DNA from: a virus
Lineage: Duplodnaviria; Heunggongvirae; Uroviricota; Caudoviricetes
Length of the DNA stretch: 49,640 nucleotides
IMG/VR virus record: IMGVR_UViG_2718218452_000011
Direction: 5' to 3' (one strand)
Made by a program: the position numbers and the translations under genes. Below are positions 17,679 through 42,731 of the stretch, in pieces; within the stretch, counting starts at the first letter, position 1, and the number at the start of each line of letters is the position of its first letter. The notes beneath the pieces were generated by a model, which was not told where the DNA came from, did no database searches, and saw only the letters and a program-made list of their open reading frames with translations.

Positions 17679-18420
17679 ATGAATGAAGCCTGTTCTGTTG
17701 TTTTTGTTCATTCCCCGTTTGTTGTGCTCTTTGAAGGAAAAGAGCTCTCTCTTGAAAGTGGTAGTGCACTTCTTGTCAGGGGGGGGGCTGGATCGTTATT
17801 GCCCTTTTCGGAATGTTTTCGGCGAATAAGTCTCAGTGAATCGACAATTAGCCGTTACCTGTTGTGTGGAGACGAAAAACAGGATGTAGTTTTAGTCCGG
17901 CAAATACCACGATATCTTTGCGTGAGTTTTCCGAAGGCAGAATTGATGGGCATCCTGATTGATTATCTTTGTGAGGAAAAGATTCATACGGACAATTTAG
18001 CGGAAATGCTTTCCTTTTCGTGTCTGGCGTTTTTCTCATCAGAGAAGATGTTTTCGTCGTTTCTGACCGCGTGTATTAGCAATATTAGTGACAGGCTTAG
18101 TGCATTGTTTCGTACGGACATTGCAGCAAACTGGACTCTGAGAGATGTGTCTTCGGTTATGTATCAGTGAAAGTTTGTTAAAAAAAAGACTGAAAGAAGA
18201 AGGCACCTGTTTCAGTGAGTTGTTGCTTACAGAGAGAATGAGAATGGCAGCAATGCTGTTGAATCAATCTCGTTGCGCCATCAACAGAATCGCTGCTCAG
18301 TGCGGCTATAATTTTACATCTTATTTTATCAGCGTATTCAGGAGTTATTTTGGTGTTACACCGGCAGGTTACAGGATGGCTGCATTCAATGAGATGAGTT
18401 TAAGTGTTACTCAAGAATAA
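17679..18420 (+). pseudogene. AppY/GadX-like AraC-family transcriptional regulator, interrupted by a frameshift near 18165
   Basis: Track ORFs 17526..18170 and 18145..18420 overlap in different frames; the second carries the AraC HTH signature (..AAQCGYNFTSYFISVFRSYFGVTPAGYR). The junction (..DVSSVMY / ISESLLKKRL) is contiguous with recalled AppY (..IYTSESLIKKRL). Confidence 0.6.
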
Positions 18421-19954: not shown

Positions 19955-20167
19955 TTAGCCTACCTTACGGTATGGATACACATTCTTTATGAACTGGTGA
20001 AAATACTGGCCTTTTGAACTGGCATTCATAAGCCCCTGATAGATCCTGGATGGAACGCCAGAGTATTGATAGATACCTCCATTGTGAAAGGCTATTTCCA
20101 GTGTGAGAGTTGCTGAATCATACCCAACAGACTGGAGATTTGATGATGAAACATAATTACGAATCAA
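19955..20167 (-). CDS. KTSC-domain protein (70 aa)
   Basis: ..YDSATLTLEIAFHNGGIYQYSGVPSRIYQGLMNASSKGQYFHQFIKNVY.. matches the KTSC domain pattern as recalled; reverse orientation. Confidence 0.55.
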   Translation of the reverse strand: MIRNYVSSSNLQSVGYDSATLTLEIAFHNGGIYQYSGVPSRIYQGLMNASSKGQYFHQFIKNVYPYRKVG

Positions 20168-20322
20168 AACAATATCCTCATATTGTGGGGAAAAGTCCCA
20201 ATGAAATTATTGATATATTTCGGCGTTATAACTTTGTCGATGATCATGGTCATCGTCTTGAAATGTGTCAGGACTTCATTGACTTAGTTAATGCGAAATC
20301 ACAACAACATCAGGATGGTTAG
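20143..20322 (+). CDS. Small hypothetical protein (59 aa)
   Basis: Internal ATG of track ORF 20110..20322 with GGAGA RBS; AT-rich. Confidence 0.3.
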   Translation: MMKHNYESKQYPHIVGKSPNEIIDIFRRYNFVDDHGHRLEMCQDFIDLVNAKSQQHQDG

Positions 20323-20439
20323 GTATTACAGCAGCCCTTCAGCGAGGGGCTGCGATAATGCCAGGCTCACCAGCAGCACCCGCCGCGCACCCAGCGCACT
20401 GGCTGCTGGTGAGCTTTTTTATATATAAAGCGAGGCTGT

Positions 20440-21228
20440 ATGAGCGAGAAATTGAAGATCGTCTATCGCCCGTTACAAAAACTGTCTCCATATGCGCACA
20501 ACGCCAGGACCCACAGCCCTGAGCAGGTGGCTCAACTGGTAGAAAGCATTAAGCAATTTGGCTGGACTAATCCAGTGCTGATTGACGAAAAGGGCGAAAT
20601 TATTGCTGGTCACGGTCGCGTTATGGCGGCTGAAGTGCTCAAAATGGATTCCGTCCCGGTCATTGTTCTGTCTGGTCTGACGGATGATCAGAAAAAGGCG
20701 TACCGCCTGGCAGATAATCGTCTGCCGCTTAACGCTGGCTGGGATGAAGAGCTGTTACGGATGGAACTTTCAGAGCTAATCAATGCTGATTTTGATATCT
20801 CCCTGACAGGATTCAGCCCAACAGAAATTGACGAACTGTTGATGGAAGTTTTGCCAGGTACCGGAAATGAGGAGGAGCCGTACACGACGAAAATTGATAC
20901 GCCTGTTTATGAGCCGTCAGGCGATAAACCGGATATCGGCGAACTGTACGACGATACGAAAACTCAGGAGCTGGTCAGCCGGATACGTTCGGCGTCCCTT
21001 GATCCTGATATCGAAAAATTCCTCCTGTGTGCAGCAGAGCGTCACACGGTGTTTGATTTCAGCAGAATTGCGGACTATTACGCTCACGCCCCGGCTGAAA
21101 TTCAGCACCTTTTTGAGGAGTCGGCGCTGGTGATCATTGATTATCAGCAGGCCATTGAAAATGGATTTGTCCGGATGACGCAACGCATGGTGGAGATCAT
21201 GCACGGCGGGGAGGAGGAATATGCGTGA
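20440..21228 (+). CDS. ParB-like nuclease (ParB/Srx) domain protein (262 aa)
   Basis: N-terminal ..PYAHNARTHSPEQVAQLVESIKQFGWTNPVLIDEKGEIIAGHGRVMAA.. ParB N-terminal domain signature. Confidence 0.7.
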   Translation: MSEKLKIVYRPLQKLSPYAHNARTHSPEQVAQLVESIKQFGWTNPVLIDEKGEIIAGHGRVMAAEVLKMDSVPVIVLSGLTDDQKKAYRLADNRLPLNAGWDEELLRMELSELINADFDISLTGFSPTEIDELLMEVLPGTGNEEEPYTTKIDTPVYEPSGDKPDIGELYDDTKTQELVSRIRSASLDPDIEKFLLCAAERHTVFDFSRIADYYAHAPAEIQHLFEESALVIIDYQQAIENGFVRMTQRMVEIMHGGEEEYA

Positions 21229-22153
21229 TGATTTTTGCGCCTTTATTCTGACTCACGGGCGACCGGACAAAGTTCTGACTTACCGAACATTACGTCGAGC
21301 TGGCTATACCGGTAAAATTTTTATCGTCGTTGATGATGAAGATAAAACCCGGCATCAGTACATAGCTGAATTTGGTAAACAGGTGTTGGTGTTTTCTAAA
21401 GCCGATATCGCCAGTCGTTTTGACGAAGCCGATAATTTCGGTGACCGTCGCTCAATTTTTTACGCACGTAATGCCTGCTTCGACCTGGCAAAACAGGTCG
21501 GGTGTAAATACTTCATTCAGTTCGATGATGATTATCATGAGTTCCAGTTTCGGGTGGATCACAACTATGACCAGGCCTATTTCCCGATAAGGAAACTGGA
21601 CGCAATCCTTTCTGAAATGCTGGCGTATTACGAATCAATTCCTGCGCTTTCCATCGCTATGTCGCAGGGGGGGGATTTTCTTGGTGACAATGGCGGCCAT
21701 GCTTCATGGGTGAAACGCAAGGCAATGAACAGCTTTATCTGTTCGGTTGAGCGACCGTTCTCATTCATGGGGCGCATTAACGAGGATGTGAATACTTACA
21801 CGAATCTCGGTCGCCGTGGTGAATTGTTTATGACGATTGGTGCTGTCCAGTTGGGACAGAAACAGACGCAGAAAAACAGCGGCGGAATGACCGAGCTGTA
21901 TCTGGATTCCGGAACCTACGTTAAAAGTTTTTACTCCGTCATGTATGCGCCCTCGTGCGTAAAAATCTCACTGATGGGGGCCAGCCATAAACGCATTCAC
22001 CATCAGGTCACCTGGAACAACGCTGCAGTAAAAATCCTTAACGAAAAATACAGGAAGAAGACACCCTGCATACCAATGGGGGTGACAAATGATTCCGTAT
22101 TCGAAAGTCGAGTCTCTGGCTGCGTGCCGGATGACCGCACAACAAATCGCTGA
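21221..22153 (+). CDS. Hypothetical 310-aa protein, possible GT-A-like nucleotide-sugar transferase fold (speculative)
   Basis: Translationally coupled to the ParB-like gene (8-nt overlap); ..IFIVVDDED.. and ..FIQFDDDYHEF.. acidic motifs resemble DXD-type signatures; no confident family assignment. Confidence 0.4.
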   Translation: MRDDFCAFILTHGRPDKVLTYRTLRRAGYTGKIFIVVDDEDKTRHQYIAEFGKQVLVFSKADIASRFDEADNFGDRRSIFYARNACFDLAKQVGCKYFIQFDDDYHEFQFRVDHNYDQAYFPIRKLDAILSEMLAYYESIPALSIAMSQGGDFLGDNGGHASWVKRKAMNSFICSVERPFSFMGRINEDVNTYTNLGRRGELFMTIGAVQLGQKQTQKNSGGMTELYLDSGTYVKSFYSVMYAPSCVKISLMGASHKRIHHQVTWNNAAVKILNEKYRKKTPCIPMGVTNDSVFESRVSGCVPDDRTTNR

Positions 22154-22340
22154 TGTTCTGGATGTTGATCTGAACCGACTGAAAGAAAATCGGGAAGCAA
22201 TGACAAATTTTTACGCATCCATCCGTAAGGGAAGAGCGAAAGGTGAAGCCGAGCTACGAGCCGCATTGTTTAAGCTTGCCAGAAAAGGGGATGCCTTTGC
22301 TCTGCGTGAGTTACTCAGGGTGGATAAAAATCAGGACTAA
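22089..22340 (+). CDS. Small hypothetical protein (83 aa), possibly DNA-binding
   Basis: Track ORF with GGGGTG RBS; overlaps the 3' end of the upstream gene; directly precedes the terminase small subunit. Confidence 0.35.
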   Translation: MIPYSKVESLAACRMTAQQIADVLDVDLNRLKENREAMTNFYASIRKGRAKGEAELRAALFKLARKGDAFALRELLRVDKNQD

Positions 22341-22343
22341 CTG

Positions 22344-23435
22344 ATGAACAGACCGGACTGGGGGGCGTTGCAGCAGGAATATATTGCTGAATACACCCGC
22401 TCCGGTGTATCTCCGGTGGCATGGTGTGAGGCAAGGGGACTGAATTACGCAACAGCCCGTCGTTACATCAAAAAACCTCCGAAAAATGCGCAGACAGAAA
22501 TGCGCAAAACTGCGCAACAAAGTGCGCAGAAAAAATCTGCGCAGACTGCGCAAAAGCGGAACGGAAAATCTCAGAAAAAAAAGCCAGTATCCGATGCGTG
22601 CCTGAATGAGGGCGACGCGGAGGAATTTTCGTTCTGCCCCGATGAATTCGGCATTTCTGACCAGCAGGCTAAGTTTGCGATGCTTGTTGCTCAGGGGAAA
22701 AAGCCGACAGAGGCATACCGACTGGCTGGTTATGAGGGGCAAGGTGCGACAGCTAACAGCAACGCCAGCCGTATGCTTAGAAATGCCAGGGTTTATCGTG
22801 CTATCAGCTACTTCCGCAATCAGTATCAGAAACGCTATACCGCAGACCTGGATTTACTGGTGAGTCAGTTGATGGCTATTGTCCAGGCCGACCCCAATCA
22901 GTTGGCACAATTTCGCCGTGTTAACTGCCGTTATTGCTGGGGCGAGAATCATCTCTACCAGTGGCGTGATATTGCAGAATTCGATAAGGCAGCGGCACAG
23001 GCCTCCAGAGATGGCAAACCCGAGCCGGAATATGGAGGCCTCGGCTTTGTTGATAACGCCATACCCAATCCGGATTGTCCGAAGTGCTGCGGTGAGGGAA
23101 CGGGACAGCTTTATATGGCTGATACCACTCTGCTTGATGGGGATGCGCGACAATTATATGCAGGGGCAAAGCTCGGGAAATTTGGTGTTGAGATCCTGCT
23201 GGAGGATAAGGCTGCCGCCCGGCGCGAACTTATCAAGCTGATAATGGCGACGAAAGGAAGTTCTGCTGGTGGTGCAACTGACAGTCGCAATGATCTGGAG
23301 CTTGAAGGACTGAGGCTTCGCAACGAAAAGCTGCGCACTGAGATTGAAAACCTCAAAAAAGGCGTGGGTGGTGAGAATAACGAAATAATTATCCACAACT
23401 CTCTGCCGATGCCGGGAGTGGATAATGTCGATTGA
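22344..23435 (+). CDS. Terminase small subunit (363 aa)
   Basis: ..KFAMLVAQGKKPTEAYRLAGYEGQGATANSNASRMLRNARVYRAISYF.. matches the terminase small-subunit (Terminase_2-like) pattern; precedes and overlaps the large subunit. Confidence 0.65.
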   Translation: MNRPDWGALQQEYIAEYTRSGVSPVAWCEARGLNYATARRYIKKPPKNAQTEMRKTAQQSAQKKSAQTAQKRNGKSQKKKPVSDACLNEGDAEEFSFCPDEFGISDQQAKFAMLVAQGKKPTEAYRLAGYEGQGATANSNASRMLRNARVYRAISYFRNQYQKRYTADLDLLVSQLMAIVQADPNQLAQFRRVNCRYCWGENHLYQWRDIAEFDKAAAQASRDGKPEPEYGGLGFVDNAIPNPDCPKCCGEGTGQLYMADTTLLDGDARQLYAGAKLGKFGVEILLEDKAAARRELIKLIMATKGSSAGGATDSRNDLELEGLRLRNEKLRTEIENLKKGVGGENNEIIIHNSLPMPGVDNVD

Positions 23436-24753
23436 AATCTACCTCCCAAAACCTCATGAGGGGCAAATAGCTGCATGGACGGCGGCAATAGAGGAACGCT
23501 TCCACGCGGTATGCTGTGGTCGTCGCTGGGGTAAAACGGTGATGCTGGTAAACATCGCTACCAGTTTCGCTACGCGGAAATTTGCCGTTCCTACCACCGG
23601 GCAACTTATCGCGGGTAGGGTGGGGATTTTTACCGCACAATACCGCCAGTACCAGGAAATCTGGGATGAAATTAGCGCCGTTCTGCAACCGCTGATCCTC
23701 AGCCAGTCAAAAAATGAAAAGCGCATTATTCTCCGTAATGGGGGGCGCATCGACTTTTGGGTAACGGACAATAACAAACTGGCCGGGCGTGGGCGTAAAT
23801 ATCACGCTGTGCTGATTGATGAGGCCGCATTCACTAAATCGCCGGAAATGCTCGAGGAAATCTGGCCCCGCGCTATACGCCCGACGCTTGTTGATTACCG
23901 TGGCTGTGCGTGGGTATTTTCCACACCAAACGGTATCGACGAGAGCAATTTTTTCTACGCGATATGCCACGATGAATCCCTGGGATTTGTCATGCACCAT
24001 GCGCCAACTTCATCGAATCCGTATATTCCGAAAGAAGAACTGGAGGAAACGGAGAAGAAATCCGATCCGCGTGTCTGGCAGCAGGAATATCTTGCCGAGT
24101 TCGTGGACTGGTCCAAAGACGCGTTACTCGATGTCGATAAGCTGCTGGTGGACGGTCAGCCGATTGAGATGCCGCCGTACTGCGACATGATTTTCGCAGT
24201 GATGGATACGGCGCTGAAAGGCGGGACCGAAAATGATGGTACTGGCGTGTTGTATTTCGCTTATGAGTCAACGTATTCGGACGAGCCAAAACTGACGATT
24301 ATTGACTGGGATGTGACGCAAATTAAAGCGTCATTGCTTCCTGAATATATCCCCGGCGTTTATGAAAACCTCGAGCGCCTCGCGAAATTATGCCGTCCGC
24401 GTCTGGGCTGCCAGGGAATTTTTATGGAAGACGCCGCGATGGGGGCAATCCTCAACCAGAAGGCGGAAACCGAAGGCTGGGATATGACGCCGATTAAATC
24501 GGCACTAACCAGCAAAGGTAAAGAAGAACGGGCGGTGATGGCATCCAGCTACCACTATCAGGGGATGTGCAAAATCGTCCGGGAGGCTTACGACAAGACC
24601 GTTTCATTCAAACGTACCACCGCAAACCACCTCATTAAACAAATCGCCGGGTTCCACCTGGCAGACAAAGACGCGCATAAACGTGCTGATGACCTTTTCG
24701 ATTGTTATACCTATGGATTGATTATCGCGCACGGTAATTACGCGGCGTTGTAA
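23425..24753 (+). CDS. Terminase large subunit (442 aa)
   Basis: Walker A-like CCGRRWGKT; ..VLIDEAAF.. Walker B-like; nuclease-domain acidic residues; canonical position. Confidence 0.85.
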   Translation: MSIEIYLPKPHEGQIAAWTAAIEERFHAVCCGRRWGKTVMLVNIATSFATRKFAVPTTGQLIAGRVGIFTAQYRQYQEIWDEISAVLQPLILSQSKNEKRIILRNGGRIDFWVTDNNKLAGRGRKYHAVLIDEAAFTKSPEMLEEIWPRAIRPTLVDYRGCAWVFSTPNGIDESNFFYAICHDESLGFVMHHAPTSSNPYIPKEELEETEKKSDPRVWQQEYLAEFVDWSKDALLDVDKLLVDGQPIEMPPYCDMIFAVMDTALKGGTENDGTGVLYFAYESTYSDEPKLTIIDWDVTQIKASLLPEYIPGVYENLERLAKLCRPRLGCQGIFMEDAAMGAILNQKAETEGWDMTPIKSALTSKGKEERAVMASSYHYQGMCKIVREAYDKTVSFKRTTANHLIKQIAGFHLADKDAHKRADDLFDCYTYGLIIAHGNYAAL

Positions 24754-24768
24754 AAAATCAGGATATTT

Positions 24769-26208
24769 TTGATGGCAGAGATCGAGATTACTGGCGGCCT
24801 CGGTTCAGCACTGATGCATATTCTTGAGGCTGAAGAAATTCAGCCGGGAACCGACATTGGCTATGAATTGTGTAAGCAGCTGTGGCAATTCCATCCTCTG
24901 GGCGGAAAACTTGTCGAAAAACCCATACTGATGGCGATGTGTAAGCCGCGCCAGTATAACGTGGAGACAGACCCTGACGAGAGGGTTGTGAGGCGTTTTC
25001 AGGAGGTATGGGAACGCATGAAGGTCAACGAGAAGATTAAAAATCTGTTTTTTCTGTCTCGTTGCTACGGTGCTGCAGCGATCGGCGTGGGCACCGACAG
25101 CGTTCCATGTCGTGAACCGCTTCCGACGTTCGGACTGACAGAAGATGACGTGTATATCAACGCGTGGGACCCGTTGAACGCTTCCGGTTCGATGGTGACT
25201 GACCAGAACCCCAACAGCCCGTTTTTCCAGGAAGCCAATAAAAAACTGAAGATTGGTGGGAAAGACTGGCATCCGTCACGCACACTGAAAATCTTCAACG
25301 GCACACCGATTTATCTGGAGTTTCAGAGTTCATCGTTCGGATTCACCGGACGTAGTGTGTTTCAGCGCGTTCTTTATTCCCTGAAATCCTATATCAACAC
25401 GATGGAGGCGAATGATCTCGTCAGCCAGAAGGCGGGCGTACTGGTAGCTAAAGTTGTGCAGTACGGTTCGAAACTTGACGGGATCATGGCTGCCGCCACG
25501 GGACGAAAAAGGGAAAACGTCAAAGAGGCAAAAAATAAAGGTGTGCTTAGTATCGGGAAGGATGAGGACGTTACCTCGCTAAATCTACAAAACATCGATG
25601 GTGCGCTAAACGCTGCACGCGACAATATTATTTCCGATATTGCGTCAGGGAGTGACGTTCCGGCGATCCTCATCAAAGAGGAAGCCTTTTCGAATGGTTT
25701 CGGTGAGGGGACCGAAGATTCGAAAGCCATCAGCCAGTATATCGATGGTGTACGCCAGCAGATTGAACCCGTGATGGATTATTTCGAACGCCTGGTGCAG
25801 TACATCGCCTGGAACGAGGAATTTTATCAGTCGCTGAAAAATGATTACCCGGACATCATAACTGATGACTATAAAACCACGTTTTACCAGTGGCGACGTG
25901 AATTTACCGCGACATGGCAGGAGCTGGTGGAGGAGTCGCCGGACAAACGCCGGGAAAGCGACAGTAAAGTGATTCAACAGGCGATAGCACTTTTCTCTGC
26001 CGTGTCGCCACAGGTTGATCCTGAAAACCGTGCCGCCGTCACTGAATGGCTGGCAAGCCTTGTTAATGCCACGCAAACCTATGGCGAAGCTCCACTCATC
26101 ATTGATGTGGACGCGCTGGCGAATTATGAACCACCGAAGCAGGAGACGCCTGATGGCAATTTCCAGCCGGGCGGTGAGGAAGAAGAAACGGATCAGGACG
26201 CTATATGA
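24769..26208 (+). CDS. Portal protein (479 aa), putative
   Basis: Size and position immediately after the terminase large subunit; acidic C-terminus. Confidence 0.6.
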   Translation: MMAEIEITGGLGSALMHILEAEEIQPGTDIGYELCKQLWQFHPLGGKLVEKPILMAMCKPRQYNVETDPDERVVRRFQEVWERMKVNEKIKNLFFLSRCYGAAAIGVGTDSVPCREPLPTFGLTEDDVYINAWDPLNASGSMVTDQNPNSPFFQEANKKLKIGGKDWHPSRTLKIFNGTPIYLEFQSSSFGFTGRSVFQRVLYSLKSYINTMEANDLVSQKAGVLVAKVVQYGSKLDGIMAAATGRKRENVKEAKNKGVLSIGKDEDVTSLNLQNIDGALNAARDNIISDIASGSDVPAILIKEEAFSNGFGEGTEDSKAISQYIDGVRQQIEPVMDYFERLVQYIAWNEEFYQSLKNDYPDIITDDYKTTFYQWRREFTATWQELVEESPDKRRESDSKVIQQAIALFSAVSPQVDPENRAAVTEWLASLVNATQTYGEAPLIIDVDALANYEPPKQETPDGNFQPGGEEEETDQDAI

Positions 26209-41570: not shown

Positions 41571-42731
41571 ATGGAAAATTTTGCAAATAAGTTAAAAATA
41601 CACACAGAGCATGTTGCAAAAATGGGGGTGTTTTGTACAACTGAAGAAACGACAAAACAAGCACTCATTATGCCATTACTAGATATTCTTGGTTTTACTC
41701 CGTATGATCCAAGAAAAGTCAAAGCTGAGTATAGTGCTGACTTCCCCGGGGTTAAGGCTAATGAACGGGTTGATTACGCTTTATTTTGTCATGATGTTCC
41801 TGTGATGTTCATTGAGGCGAAATCGTTTTCAGAACAAATTGATAATCACTGCCCACAGCTATCAAGATATTTTAATTCAACACCGGAAGTTACTATATCA
41901 GCCATTACAAATGGTGTTGAATGGCGTTTTTTTACGGATTTGAAACAAAAAAACATAATGGATTCAACGCCGTTTTTAAAAATAAGAATGGATTCTCTAA
42001 CTCACTCCGATATTACACAATTATTTCGTTTTCGTTATGATAAATTCAAACCAGAGGCTTTACGGACACTGGCTGAAGAAAGTGTTTATTTGAATTCATT
42101 TACTAAAACAATCAGTTCTAGTCTTCGTGAAGTTGATCTGGAGTTTGTTCGATATGTTGCTAGTCGTTCAAATATTGAGAGACAACTTAATCAGAGATTT
42201 CTTGAGTTCGTGACTCCATTAGTTAAACAGGCCGTTGAGCGCGCTGTTAGCGCAATGGTGGTTTCCGGGCTATCTACACAACCGGTAGAGCAAACTAAAG
42301 AAAATGATGCAACGGATACACAAGTTAATAACGCCATTGTTGATGAAGAAAACCCCAACATAATAACCACAGCCAAAGAATTGGAGCTATTTGAAAGGGT
42401 AAAACAAATCATACAAACAGAAGATAATATAGAATATAAAGATACTGAGTCATATTTTGGTGTGCTATTGAATGGTAAAACTAATAGATGGCTGTTAAGA
42501 TTTTATGATAAAAAATCTTCATTTATAACTTTACCTATTTCGCTTAGTGAAGTTCAGTTGAATGAAATAAGACGAGCTCGACTTGATACGGATGGTAAAA
42601 GGATACATATAACTAATCCGGAAGATATACTTCGCATATCTGGTTTGATTCTGGATTCATACGAGTATGTTAAAAATGATGATAATTTCCGCCGAGGGTC
42701 CAGAGTGAGCAGTTTAGAAGAGGTTGAATAA
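41571..42731 (+). CDS. HsdR-N/Mrr-like PD-(D/E)XK nuclease-domain protein with uncharacterised 240-aa C-terminal domain; candidate defence gene
   Basis: GGAGGAG RBS 6 nt before ATG 41571; motifs ..ERVDYALF..(16)..VMFIEAKS..Q..Y...TNGVEWRFF fit the type I R-subunit N-terminal nuclease fold; AT-rich, own promoter-like sequence and terminator; inserted between baseplate W-like and J-like genes. Confidence 0.6.
   Translation: MENFANKLKIHTEHVAKMGVFCTTEETTKQALIMPLLDILGFTPYDPRKVKAEYSADFPGVKANERVDYALFCHDVPVMFIEAKSFSEQIDNHCPQLSRYFNSTPEVTISAITNGVEWRFFTDLKQKNIMDSTPFLKIRMDSLTHSDITQLFRFRYDKFKPEALRTLAEESVYLNSFTKTISSSLREVDLEFVRYVASRSNIERQLNQRFLEFVTPLVKQAVERAVSAMVVSGLSTQPVEQTKENDATDTQVNNAIVDEENPNIITTAKELELFERVKQIIQTEDNIEYKDTESYFGVLLNGKTNRWLLRFYDKKSSFITLPISLSEVQLNEIRRARLDTDGKRIHITNPEDILRISGLILDSYEYVKNDDNFRRGSRVSSLEEVE

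What the first reader, a model, noticed from the sequence alone, without database searches (positions are those of the whole stretch)
20440..22153. ParB/Srx-domain gene translationally coupled to a 310-aa protein with DXD-like acidic motifs, just upstream of the terminase
The 262-aa protein has a clear ParB N-terminal domain; its stop overlaps the start of a 310-aa protein with ..IVVDDED.. and ..QFDDDY.. motifs suggestive (weakly) of a nucleotide-dependent transferase. Such a coupled pair next to the packaging genes could be a DNA-modification or anti-restriction module, or a packaging accessory. The partner's function is not known to me.
Basis: partly seen in the sequence, partly recalled or inferred. 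Interest (0 to 1): 0.5.

Follow-up and report, generated by a model that had tools for sequence, protein, structure and literature searches.

The report
ParB-adaptor plus TAGT glycosyltransferase cassette
Two translationally coupled late genes of a Rac-like E. coli prophage encode a TET-associated-family glycosyltransferase and its dedicated ParB-like partner; the pair is conserved next to terminase genes in phages of bacteria and archaea, it probably puts a sugar on phage DNA, and its acceptor is unknown because these phages make no hydroxymethyl-pyrimidine.

Summary
ORF 20440-21228 (262 aa) has a ParB/Srx N-domain. Its stop overlaps by 8 nt the start of ORF 21221-22153 (310 aa), which sits just upstream of terS/terL.

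The 310-aa protein belongs to a known family: Pfam PF20691 (TET-Associated Glycosyltransferase, E 1.7e-35), with a GT-A fold and intact R...DDD...ED motifs. RefSeq calls it 'GREB1-related protein' and calls the ParB gene ynaK.

New here:
- **Obligate pair.** A homologue of the partner's C-terminal module lay directly upstream of every TAGT homologue in 124 of 124 loci scored. These span many bacterial phyla, an archaeal MAG and a haloarchaeal virus.
- **Coupled junction.** The stop and start overlap in 72 of 78 non-redundant junctions. Terminases of several types lie downstream.
- **Invariant partner.** The constant part is a linker motif plus an acidic helical C-terminal domain. The ParB N-domain is absent in four loci.
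- **No precursor pathway found.** Neither this prophage nor two small complete phages with the pair has an annotated TET/JBP, thymidylate-synthase-like or C5-methyltransferase gene.

Best reading (about 0.45): a late-expressed, adaptor-dependent DNA glycosyltransferase, analogous to ParB-dependent phage thymine dioxygenases and ParB-methyltransferase fusions. The acceptor is unknown; protein glycosylation is the main rival. I rate it a new variant of a known kind, of moderate interest.

The parts
20363..20421 (+). Terminator-like hairpin (15-bp stem) plus U-run, 20 nt upstream of the first gene. It marks the upstream boundary of the cassette and packaging transcription unit, and would have to be read through by late antitermination (inferred).
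   Evidence: dG -34.9 kcal/mol, z -5.6, 0 of 200 shuffles fold as well. One search lists sub-hairpins.
20440..21228 (+). Adaptor gene (262 aa; PGAP name ynaK, 'ParB/Srx family N-terminal domain-containing protein'). Domains: ParB/Srx nucleotide-binding-type domain plus two or three helices (aa 1-~136), a disordered acidic linker (aa ~137-170), and an acidic helical C-terminal domain (aa ~171-255).
   Evidence: Purifying selection, omega 0.11-0.18.
20440..20847 (+). ParB/Srx N-domain plus following helices (aa 1-136). Box-II-like AGHGR (H58, R60 invariant), N21-x-R23, and D92-N93. This is the same module as in phage ParB-DNA-methyltransferase fusions. It is an accessory part, absent from four homologous loci.
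   Evidence: Pfam PF02195. phrog_498 'DNA methyltransferase' E 5e-51 over aa 3-141. PADLOC MTase_II E 1.8e-37 over aa 8-144. Foldseek hits to CDP/CTPgammaS-bound ParB, Noc, KorB, PadC and Srx. HMM alignment to Noc. Absence in L080, L105, L106 and L126.
20881..20916 (+). Conserved linear motif Y148-T-T-K-I-D-T-P-V-Y-E-P159 (consensus Y-[TS]-x5-P-x-Y-x-P) in the otherwise disordered linker. It is a candidate docking peptide for the glycosyltransferase, or a candidate acceptor site.
   Evidence: Invariant Y148, K151, P155, Y157 and P159 in A2. Retained in Bacteroides, Lactobacillus, Nocardia, Haloarcula-virus and ParB-less partners. pLDDT below 50.
20950..21204 (+). C-terminal helical domain of the adaptor (aa ~171-255; FLLxAAERHTVFxFSKIADYYAH...LFEESALVIIDY..AIE.GF). 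This is the invariant partner module of this TAGT subfamily. No Pfam family matches it.
   Evidence: Found directly upstream of TAGT in 124 of 124 loci scored. About 1196 clusters at 50% identity carry it; in the 150 best it is almost always C-terminal in ~260-aa proteins and never fused to a TAGT-sized extension. No Pfam hit. Weak repeated hits to PF23887.
21221..21228 (+). Overlap of the adaptor's stop with the glycosyltransferase's start (ATGCGTGA), which gives translational coupling.
   Evidence: An overlap of 4-20 nt is conserved in 72 of 78 non-redundant junctions.
21221..22153 (+). Glycosyltransferase gene (310 aa), TAGT family (PF20691; PGAP 'GREB1-related protein' in sister genomes). 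GT-A catalytic core is aa 1-215. A highly conserved basic C-terminal region is aa 216-287. A lineage-specific tail, aa 288-310, overlaps the next ORF.
   Evidence: Pfam E 1.7e-35, 123.3 bits against a cut-off of 27.5. phrog_842 E 1.6e-101. AF2 model with a confident core. Foldseek: GT2 SpsA, glycogenin and others, and viral TAGT models at E 6e-21. omega 0.05-0.07. pI 9.7 for aa 216-287.
21524..21532 (+). DDD (D102-D103-D104), the DXD-type metal and nucleotide-sugar motif of the GT-A fold. Other invariant catalytic-type residues are R14, D38/D41, N187-E188-D189 and H260-H261.
   Evidence: Invariant columns in A1. They correspond to the R...DDD...EDY/F motifs described for phage DNA GT-A enzymes and the trypanosome base-J glucosyltransferase (bioRxiv 10.1101/2023.12.21.572611).
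22089..22340 (+). Context: small ORF (83 aa from the first ATG; PGAP starts it at 22131) with a match to a PHROG family named terminase small subunit, between the cassette and terS.
   Evidence: phrog_309 E 2.5e-22. PGAP CDS. Co-conserved in enterobacterial loci.
22344..24753 (+). Context: terminase small (22344-23435) and large (23425-24753) subunit genes. The cassette sits immediately upstream of terminase genes in most related loci.
   Evidence: Terminase_3-type and Terminase_6-type large subunits and Sf6-like small subunits lie downstream in distant loci.

Best explanation
The two genes encode a two-subunit glycosyltransferase made at the start of the late (packaging) gene block.

Shown:
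- The 310-aa protein is a Leloir-type GT-A enzyme of the TAGT family with all catalytic-type motifs intact.
- The 262-aa protein is its dedicated partner. Its conserved linker motif and acidic C-terminal domain are found with every member of this TAGT subfamily.
- The genes are almost always translationally coupled, which implies roughly equimolar synthesis.

Inferred:
- The partner's C-terminal module binds and activates or positions the basic glycosyltransferase.
- The ParB/Srx N-domain, where present, tethers or loads the complex on double-stranded DNA, possibly in a nucleotide-dependent way.
- The enzyme then transfers a sugar from a nucleotide-sugar onto replicated phage DNA before packaging. 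This would protect the DNA from host nucleases in the next host, as the ParB-methyltransferase fusions in the same genomic position are thought to do.

The acceptor is not known. These phages have no recognisable route to 5-hydroxymethyl-pyrimidines, so the target would have to be something present in ordinary DNA.
For: - **Family and fold.** Pfam TAGT E 1.7e-35. The AF2 core is a GT-A fold and the nearest viral models are TAGT proteins. R14, DDD102-104 and ED188-189 are invariant.
- **What the family does.** Characterised phage members glycosylate DNA: the T2/T6 beta-glucosyl-HMC-alpha-GT (PMC13216743) and the 5mYOX-linked GT-A enzymes acting on 5hmC (bioRxiv 10.1101/2023.12.21.572611).
- **Obligate pairing.** The partner's C-terminal module is directly upstream in 124 of 124 loci scored, from many bacterial phyla, an archaeal MAG and a haloarchaeal virus. 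The junction overlaps in 72 of 78 cases. Both genes are under strong purifying selection.
- **Conservation across hosts.** At least 39-47% identity between enterobacterial, Lactobacillus, Nocardia and Haloarcula-virus enzymes. This argues for universal substrates such as DNA and a common nucleotide-sugar, not a host-specific protein.
- **ParB module.** It is the type fused to phage DNA methyltransferases. It superposes on CDP/CTPgammaS-bound ParB, Noc and KorB structures.
- **Experimental precedent.** A phage ParB-like protein with a nucleotide-binding domain, linker and C-terminal domain, and no DNA-binding domain, is required for a thymine dioxygenase to act on dsDNA (PMC13229309).
- **Charge.** The glycosyltransferase is basic, especially aa 216-287 (pI 9.7). 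The partner is acidic outside its ParB domain.
- **Position.** It is the first cassette of the packaging block, downstream of a terminator-like hairpin.
Against: - No biochemical activity, donor or acceptor could be tested.
- No TET/JBP, thymidylate-synthase-like hydroxymethylase or C5-methyltransferase is annotated in this prophage, in phage phi jlb1 or in phage c5. The only acceptor types known for DNA glycosyltransferases therefore appear to be missing.
- Direct glycosylation of canonical DNA bases by a Leloir enzyme has no precedent (my knowledge).
- A eukaryotic family member, GREB1, glycosylates a protein (PMC7968844).
- The ParB domain is dispensable in four loci, so DNA tethering cannot be the essential role of the partner.
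- The ParB box II is GHGR rather than GERR, so nucleotide binding is uncertain.
- The C-terminal third of the enzyme and the partner's C-terminal domain were modelled with low confidence. The proposed interaction is therefore untested.
Confidence: 0.45

Rival explanations
1. The enzyme glycosylates a protein rather than DNA. The most economical version is that it modifies its own partner on a Tyr, Thr or Ser of the conserved Y-[TS]-x5-P-x-Y-x-P linker motif, as glycogenin does on Tyr or as glycocin S-/O-glycosyltransferases do on an adjacent-gene peptide. The product would be a glycosylated ParB-like protein of unknown role.
For: GREB1, a TAGT-family member, O-GlcNAcylates ERalpha (PMC7968844). 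The partner always carries an invariant hydroxyl-rich linear motif in a disordered segment. The genes are co-translated. The GT-A core resembles glycogenin and the peptide glycosyltransferases ThuS and SunS, though only at the generic fold level. No hydroxymethyl-pyrimidine pathway is present.
Against: The bacterial and phage members characterised so far act on DNA. The fusion of the partner to a ParB module shared with DNA methyltransferases points to DNA. The fixed position at the head of the packaging block does too. The structural similarity to glycogenin and SunS is no better than to other GT-A enzymes (E about 1e-4 to 1e-3, TM 0.3-0.4).
Confidence: 0.2
2. The complex glycosylates another universal molecule, such as a nucleotide, a signalling nucleotide or an RNA, as an anti-defence measure. 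The ParB N-domain would serve as a nucleotide-binding module rather than a DNA tether.
For: Very high conservation across bacteria and archaea fits any universal substrate. ParB/Srx folds bind CTP, ATP or GTP and include small-molecule kinases such as SerK and Srx (PMC12704722). Phages are known to inactivate immune signalling nucleotides (my knowledge).
Against: No family member is known to act on small molecules. The ParB domain is optional. No defence or anti-defence profile matched the glycosyltransferase in PADLOC.
Confidence: 0.1
3. The pair is a DNA-packaging accessory. A ParB-like nuclease or DNA-binding protein would help the terminase recognise or cut pac/cos DNA, by analogy with HNH proteins next to terminases. 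The second protein would be a structural or regulatory helper whose glycosyltransferase fold is vestigial.
For: The cassette lies immediately upstream of terS/terL in most loci, and right after cos in phage c5. ParB_N domains were historically annotated as nucleases.
Against: The catalytic glycosyltransferase motifs are invariant under strong purifying selection. The cassette accompanies at least two unrelated large-terminase families and different small subunits, which argues against specific packaging contacts. In a 195-kb Vibrio phage it sits among replication genes, and in HHTV-2 it is 2.9 kb from the terminase. The ParB domain can be missing.
Confidence: 0.05
4. It is what PHROG-derived annotations call it: a beta-glucosyl-HMC-alpha-glucosyltransferase that adds a second glucose to glucosyl-5-hydroxymethylcytosine, as in T2 and T6.
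For: phrog_842 carries that name. RefSeq records of phi jlb1, c5 and HHTV-2 repeat it. It shares a Pfam family with the T-even enzyme.
Against: No dCMP hydroxymethylase, alpha- or beta-GT, TET or C5-methyltransferase is annotated in this prophage or in the small complete phages that carry the pair. Identity to T4-like-phage homologues is only about 23-25%, and the E. coli T-even enzymes were not retrieved at E 1e-3.
Confidence: 0.03

Closest known systems
TET-Associated Glycosyltransferase family (Pfam PF20691): T2/T6 beta-glucosyl-HMC-alpha-glucosyltransferase and the 5mYOX-linked phage GT-A DNA glycosyltransferases; distant relatives are trypanosome JGT and animal GREB1
   Same: Strong profile match, GT-A fold and R...DDD...ED catalytic motifs. 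Phage-encoded.
   Different: No TET/JBP, hydroxymethylase or primary glucosyltransferase is annotated in the genome. Identity to T4-like homologues is only about 23-25%. This subfamily always has a dedicated upstream partner protein and a conserved basic C-terminal region.
ParB-dependent phage thymine dioxygenases (5mYOX176/ParB176; PMC13229309)
   Same: A phage ParB-like protein with a nucleotide-binding-type N-domain, short helices, a roughly 50-aa disordered linker and a C-terminal domain, without an obvious DNA-binding domain, is encoded next to a DNA-modification-family enzyme. In that system the ParB is required for activity on dsDNA.
   Different: The partner enzyme here is a glycosyltransferase, not a dioxygenase. 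Here the ParB N-domain is dispensable in some lineages, whereas both domains were needed for ParB176.
Phage and prophage ParB-DNA methyltransferase fusions (phrog_498; PADLOC MTase_II; PF02195+PF01555 fusions in PMC12704722)
   Same: The first ~140 residues are the same ParB module (E 5e-51 and 1.8e-37). The fusions are likewise enriched in prophages (PMC12704722). From my knowledge they also typically lie upstream of the terminase; this was not checked here.
   Different: The methyltransferase domain is replaced by a linker plus C-terminal domain that recruits a separately encoded glycosyltransferase. The two are not covalently fused.
Chromosomal and plasmid ParB/Noc/KorB CTPase clamps
   Same: The N-domain fold superposes on theirs, at 3.4-4.1 A over about 140 residues for Noc, KorB and CcParB. 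Equivalents of some phosphate-binding residues are retained (N21, R23, R60).
   Different: No HTH parS-binding domain. No dimerisation-domain Pfam match. No parA in the window. Below the TIGR00180 cut-off (36.5 against 58.45). Box II is GHGR, not GERR.

Membership tests
TAGT (Pfam PF20691) | Profile match above the curated gathering score | tested here: met
   123.3 bits against a cut-off of 27.5, E 1.7e-35, aa 8-222 covering profile positions 4-205 of 205.
TAGT (Pfam PF20691) | GT-A fold | tested here: met
   AF2 core aa 1-215 is mostly pLDDT above 80. Foldseek PDB top hits are GT-A enzymes: a Leptospira GT, SpsA, glycogenin and GnT-I. The best viral models are TAGT proteins, E 6e-21.
TAGT (Pfam PF20691) | Catalytic R...DDD...ED(Y/F) motifs described for phage GT-A DNA glycosyltransferases and JGT | tested here: met
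   R14, D102-D103-D104 and E188-D189 are invariant in A1. The residue after ED is V, not Y or F. The motif definition comes from bioRxiv 10.1101/2023.12.21.572611.
TAGT (Pfam PF20691) | Genomic association with a TET/JBP dioxygenase or another source of 5-hydroxymethyl-pyrimidine | tested here: not met
   No such gene appears in the PGAP table of the prophage or in Pfam scans of 10 unnamed proteins. None is annotated in complete phages phi jlb1 and c5. No third conserved gene family other than terminases occurs in 44 diverse loci.
TAGT (Pfam PF20691) | Glycosyl transfer to a DNA base or to a base-linked sugar | not testable with these tools
   Needs biochemistry or nucleoside mass spectrometry.
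T2/T6 beta-glucosyl-HMC-alpha-glucosyltransferase (the label of phrog_842) | The phage makes HMC DNA and encodes an alpha- or beta-glucosyltransferase that supplies the acceptor | tested here: not met
   No dCMP hydroxymethylase or alpha/beta-GT is annotated. Homologues in T4-like Aeromonas phages are only 23-25% identical.
ParB/Srx N-terminal domain (PF02195) | Profile match above the gathering score, and the ParB/Srx fold | tested here: met
   28.6 bits against 26.3. Foldseek hits to B. subtilis, M. xanthus and C. crescentus ParB, Noc, PadC, KorB and Srx.
Canonical partition ParB (TIGR00180) | HTH parS-binding domain, C-terminal dimerisation domain, ParA partner, GERR box | tested here: not met
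   36.5 bits against a cut-off of 58.45. No HTH or ParB_C Pfam hit. No parA in the annotated prophage. Box II reads GHGR.
ParB/Srx N-terminal domain (PF02195) | NTP binding or hydrolysis | tested here: inconclusive
   Equivalents of N-x-R (N21, R23) and the last Arg of box II (R60) are invariant, but the E and first R of GERR are replaced by H and G. Binding cannot be tested here.
ParB-dependent DNA-modifying enzyme systems (PMC13229309) | ParB-like protein with N-domain, disordered linker and C-terminal domain, and no DNA-binding domain, encoded next to the enzyme | tested here: met
   AF2 model: N-domain plus helices to aa 134, disordered 137-170, helical 172-255. Adjacent and overlapping genes.
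ParB-dependent DNA-modifying enzyme systems (PMC13229309) | Enzyme activity on dsDNA depends on the ParB-like partner | not testable with these tools
   Requires co-expression or in vitro reconstitution.
ParB-DNA methyltransferase fusions | A methyltransferase domain fused to the ParB module | tested here: not met
   Only aa 3-144 match phrog_498 and PADLOC MTase_II. No methyltransferase Pfam domain.

The most novel reading that the evidence does not exclude
The adaptor-TAGT complex attaches a sugar directly to a canonical component of DNA, such as an exocyclic amine or another position of an unmodified base, with no hydroxymethyl-pyrimidine precursor. That would be an undescribed DNA modification. 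It would be carried by temperate phages of many bacterial phyla and of haloarchaea, and by prophages in over a quarter of complete E. coli genomes.
Probability: 0.2. Interest if true: 0.9.

Novelty: new variant of a known kind. Interest (0 to 1): 0.58.

Why it matters
DNA similar to the cassette region occurs in 1563 of 5426 complete E. coli genomes, and in 865 of them the match covers at least 80% of it. The cassette also occurs in Lactobacillus dairy phages, gut Bacteroides prophages and a haloarchaeal virus. Yet its product is annotated either as 'hypothetical', 'GREB1-related', or wrongly as a T-even HMC glucosyltransferase.

Recent papers note hundreds of 'solitary' TAGTs with no known precursor pathway (PMC13216743). 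They also report that about 65% of GT-containing viral contigs lack a neighbouring base-modification enzyme (bioRxiv 10.1101/2023.12.21.572611).

This analysis shows that a large share of these form one rigid two-gene unit with a dedicated partner domain. That gives a concrete and easily cloned system, two genes of 1.7 kb from E. coli. With it one can ask what a DNA-family glycosyltransferase does when no hydroxymethyl base is available, and whether ParB-like adaptors are a general way of delivering base-modifying enzymes to DNA. If the acceptor is ordinary DNA, this would be a new modification relevant to restriction evasion, to phage therapy host range and to sequencing artefacts.

Tried and rejected
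- **Partition function.** Rejected: no HTH, no ParA, and below the TIGR00180 cut-off.
- **Known anti-phage defence system.** PADLOC matched only the ParB module of MTase_II and nothing for the glycosyltransferase.
- **NCBIfam.** No model matched the 310-aa protein.
- **Solved relative of the glycosyltransferase by sequence.** None in the PDB.
- **Third conserved gene.** All-against-all clustering of ORFs in 44 diverse loci found only terminases, PcfJ-like proteins and structural genes.
- **Fusion of the partner's C-terminal domain to other enzymes.** A HMMER search of 1.84 billion representatives found about 1196 hits. Among the 150 best listed, nearly all have the ParB-N plus CTD layout or are shorter, and none has a TAGT-sized extension.
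- **Fold of the partner's C-terminal domain.** The AF2 confidence was too low (pLDDT 45-72) for a meaningful fold comparison.
- **Literature.** Iyer et al. 2013, which defined TAGT and first proposed ParB targeting, is not held in the library. The supplements of PMC13229309 are not held either, so ParB176 could not be aligned with this protein. Searches for ynaK, for GREB1 with ParB, and for TAGT with ParB gave no functional study of this pair.
- **AlphaFold database fold library.** Unavailable.
- **dN/dS.** Synonymous sites were saturated for most pairs; only three comparisons per gene set were usable.
- **K-12 ydaY as a remnant of the glycosyltransferase.** It is not. Rac keeps only the first 89 codons of the ParB-like gene.
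Full report
**Observation.** The window is part of a Rac-like prophage of E. coli strain C7, carrying intR, xisR, ralR, recT, recE, kilR and ydaS/T; the 2.1-kb query around the finding is 100% identical to NZ_CP010240.1. ORF 20440-21228 (262 aa) and ORF 21221-22153 (310 aa) exist as described. The second ATG lies 8 nt inside the first gene, at ATGCGTGA. The first protein matches Pfam ParB_N above threshold and phrog_620 over its full length. The second contains the quoted IVVDDED and QFDDDY motifs. A small ORF with a phrog_309 match (a family named terminase small subunit), then terS and terL, follow directly. A strong hairpin with a U-run (dG -34.9, z -5.6) ends 20 nt before the first start codon.

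**What the 310-aa protein is.** It belongs to a named family: Pfam PF20691, TET-Associated Glycosyltransferase (E 1.7e-35, 123 bits against a cut-off of 27.5). RefSeq names sister copies 'GREB1-related protein' and the upstream gene ynaK.
- An AlphaFold2 model has a confident GT-A core at aa 1-215. It resembles SpsA, glycogenin, GnT-I and other GT-A enzymes. Its closest viral matches are predicted structures of phage TAGT proteins (E 6e-21).
- In an alignment of 17 homologues down to 60% identity, R14, D38/D41, D102-D103-D104-Y105, N187-E188-D189 and H260-H261 are invariant.
- These correspond to the R...DDD...ED motifs reported for phage GT-A DNA glycosyltransferases and the trypanosome base-J glucosyltransferase (bioRxiv 10.1101/2023.12.21.572611).

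**What the 262-aa protein is.**
- Residues 1-~136 form a ParB/Srx-fold module. It superposes on CDP/CTPgammaS-bound ParB, Noc, KorB and PadC.
- At the sequence level it is the same module that is fused to DNA methyltransferases in phages: phrog_498 at E 5e-51 and PADLOC MTase_II at E 1.8e-37.
- It is not a partition ParB. There is no HTH, no ParA, and it scores below the TIGR00180 cut-off. Box II reads GHGR instead of GERR, although N21, R23 and R60 are invariant.
- Residues ~137-170 are predicted disordered but contain an invariant motif, Y148-T-T-K-I-D-T-P-V-Y-E-P159.
- Residues ~171-255 form an acidic helical domain with no Pfam family.

**The pair is one unit.** I fetched 80 viral loci and 42 loci from one-genome-per-species bacterial and archaeal assemblies that encode a TAGT homologue. 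Every one has a homologue of the 262-aa protein immediately upstream on the same strand.
- Scoring those 122 loci plus two sequenced phages with profile HMMs, the C-terminal module was directly upstream in 124 of 124.
- The genome loci include Enterobacterales, Bacteroidota, Firmicutes, Actinobacteria, Planctomycetes, Chlorobi, Ignavibacteria, Spirochaetes, Desulfobacterota, Saccharibacteria and an archaeal MAG.
- Sequenced phages with the pair include Lactobacillus phages phi jlb1 and c5, Nocardia phage NTR1, Porphyromonas phages (only 26% identical) and the haloarchaeal virus HHTV-2. Hits in LL-Ku, phiLdb and Ld17 also lie in the first 2 kb of their records, but their upstream genes were not checked.
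- In 78 non-redundant junctions, 72 overlap stop and start by 4-20 nt, mostly 8 or 11.
- Where synonymous sites are not saturated, omega is 0.05-0.07 for the enzyme and 0.11-0.18 for the partner.
- Clustering all ORFs of 44 diverse loci found no other universally conserved neighbour. The recurrent ones are Sf6-like small terminase subunits and Terminase_3-type or Terminase_6-type large subunits downstream.

**The invariant partner is the C-terminal module, not ParB.** In three metagenomic or genomic loci (L080, L105, L106) and in a 195-kb Vibrio phage, the upstream gene is only about 130-140 aa. It consists of the Y-[TS]-x5-P-x-Y-x-P motif plus the helical domain, with no ParB domain. A search of 1.84 billion representative proteins with the C-terminal 124 residues found about 1196 clusters. 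Among the 150 best, nearly all are ~260-aa proteins with the domain at the C-terminus, and none has a TAGT-sized extension. So the C-terminal module is the cognate partner of this glycosyltransferase subfamily, and the ParB module is a frequent but dispensable addition. The partner is strongly acidic outside the ParB module (net -26). The enzyme is basic, especially its very conserved but poorly modelled region at aa 216-287, with pI 9.7.

**What it probably does.** Characterised phage members of the family glycosylate DNA. The T2/T6 enzyme extends glucosyl-5hmC (PMC13216743). The 5mYOX-linked GT-A enzymes put sugars on 5hmC. A 2026 study showed that a phage ParB-like protein with the same layout (N-domain, short helices, ~50-aa disordered linker, C-terminal domain, no DNA-binding domain) is required for a thymine dioxygenase to act on double-stranded DNA. 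That study cites the 2013 hypothesis that ParB homologues direct modification enzymes to DNA (PMC13229309).

My best-supported model rests on four points:
- these precedents;
- the ParB module shared with DNA methyltransferases;
- the position at the head of the packaging block;
- conservation across bacteria and archaea, which implies universal substrates.

On that model, this is a late-expressed, adaptor-dependent DNA glycosyltransferase that marks replicated phage DNA before packaging. The family assignment, the fold, the motifs, the obligate pairing and the coupling are shown. Complex formation, DNA targeting, the donor, the acceptor and the anti-restriction role are inferred.

**The open problem.** The acceptor types known for DNA glycosyltransferases are hydroxymethyl-pyrimidines or sugars already attached to them. 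I found no TET/JBP, thymidylate-synthase-like hydroxymethylase, C5-methyltransferase or primary glucosyltransferase in this prophage (PGAP table; Pfam scan of ten unnamed proteins). None is annotated in the complete 38-kb phi jlb1 or 32-kb c5 genomes. The PHROG-derived label 'beta-glucosyl-HMC-alpha-glucosyltransferase' used in RefSeq phage records is therefore almost certainly an over-annotation.

Either the enzyme modifies something in ordinary DNA, which would be new chemistry, or the acceptor is not DNA. GREB1, the animal member of the family, O-GlcNAcylates a protein (PMC7968844). The partner's invariant hydroxyl-rich motif in a disordered linker is a plausible acceptor as well as a plausible docking peptide. 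I rate DNA glycosylation at about 0.45, protein (possibly partner) glycosylation at about 0.2, another universal acceptor at about 0.1, a packaging accessory at about 0.05, and the canonical HMC role at about 0.03.

**Comparison with what is known, and novelty.** Both protein families are known, and the general co-occurrence of GTs with ParB-like genes and terminases has been noted statistically. So has the existence of 'solitary' TAGTs: 288 of 753 phage genomes, with function undefined. A 2025 survey of the ParB-CTPase fold describes ParB-methyltransferase fusions in prophages but does not mention glycosyltransferases (PMC12704722). I found no study of this cassette.

What is added here:
- these solitary TAGTs form a rigid, translationally coupled two-gene unit;
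- its invariant partner is a previously unnamed C-terminal module;
- the unit travels with terminases of different families across bacteria and archaea;
- it occurs where no precursor pathway is detectable.

That makes it a new variant of a known kind, not a new kind. It is moderately interesting, and would be highly interesting if the acceptor proves to be unmodified DNA.

**Caveats.**
- The loci were retrieved with peptide patterns taken from this subfamily, so the 100% pairing applies to the subfamily, down to about 26% identity in Porphyromonas phages. It does not apply to all PF20691 proteins.
- Absence of precursor enzymes rests on annotation tables and a limited Pfam scan.
- Both structure models have low-confidence C-terminal parts.
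- This copy of the prophage carries an IS3 insertion in a head gene and is probably defective. Intact relatives have been deposited as phage genome records.

Noticed in passing
window 28043-29256: An IS3-family element with a programmed frameshift is inserted into a head-module gene (DUF2213-type, annotated as incomplete). This copy of the prophage is therefore probably unable to form particles.
   Followed up: no
window 24772-26208: PGAP names this 478-aa protein 'anti-CBASS protein Acb1 family'. By position, directly after terL, and by Pfam (Phage_portal_3, E 1.6e-12), it is the portal protein. The label looks like a mis-annotation.
   Followed up: partly
window 20321-20421: A strong terminator-like hairpin (15-bp stem, dG -34.9, z -5.6) with a U-run lies just before the cassette. 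An 83-nt stretch overlapping its 5' half (20321-20403) is 90.5% identical to a segment of Actinobacillus phage vB_Apl-pPE4, an unexpectedly distant host.
   Followed up: partly
window 22484-22555: Inside the terS gene there are five direct copies of AAnTGCGCAnAA, plus the palindromic pair TGCGCAGA/TCTGCGCA. In all there are seven TGCGCA cores in 72 nt. This is a candidate pac or TerS-binding site. It also encodes a repetitive (S/T)AQ(K/Q) stretch of the protein.
   Followed up: no
L131 5378-5981 (E. coli K-12 MG1655, Rac prophage): K-12 ynaK is only the first 89 codons of this ParB-like gene (92% identity). The rest of the gene and the glycosyltransferase are deleted. The following gene ydaY is unrelated, so K-12 cannot be used to study the cassette.
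   Followed up: yes
L080 5601-6005, L105 5607-6011, L106 4899-5294, L126 5459-5878: The four ParB-less partner proteins all give weak, sub-threshold Pfam hits (E 0.005-0.08) to the same part of PF23887, 'Phage L5 gene 47-like protein'. This is a possible remote relationship of the C-terminal module to a mycobacteriophage protein of unknown function.
   Followed up: no
window 22082-22153: The E. coli lineage glycosyltransferase has a 23-aa C-terminal tail absent from homologues in other genera, which end near aa 287. The tail overlaps the next ORF by 23-65 nt, depending on the start chosen. It is probably a read-through extension with no conserved function.
   Followed up: partly
window 41571-42400 onward (L001 41272-42101; the fetched locus ends there): A type I restriction endonuclease gene lies just beyond the baseplate genes near the right end of the prophage region. 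It could be prophage cargo or flanking host DNA.
   Followed up: no
window 17679-18420 and 19955-20167: Moron-like genes sit around the lysis cassette. There is a split AraC-type HTH regulator (two adjacent CDSs) upstream of the holins, and a KTSC-domain gene on the minus strand between the endolysin and the cassette.
   Followed up: no
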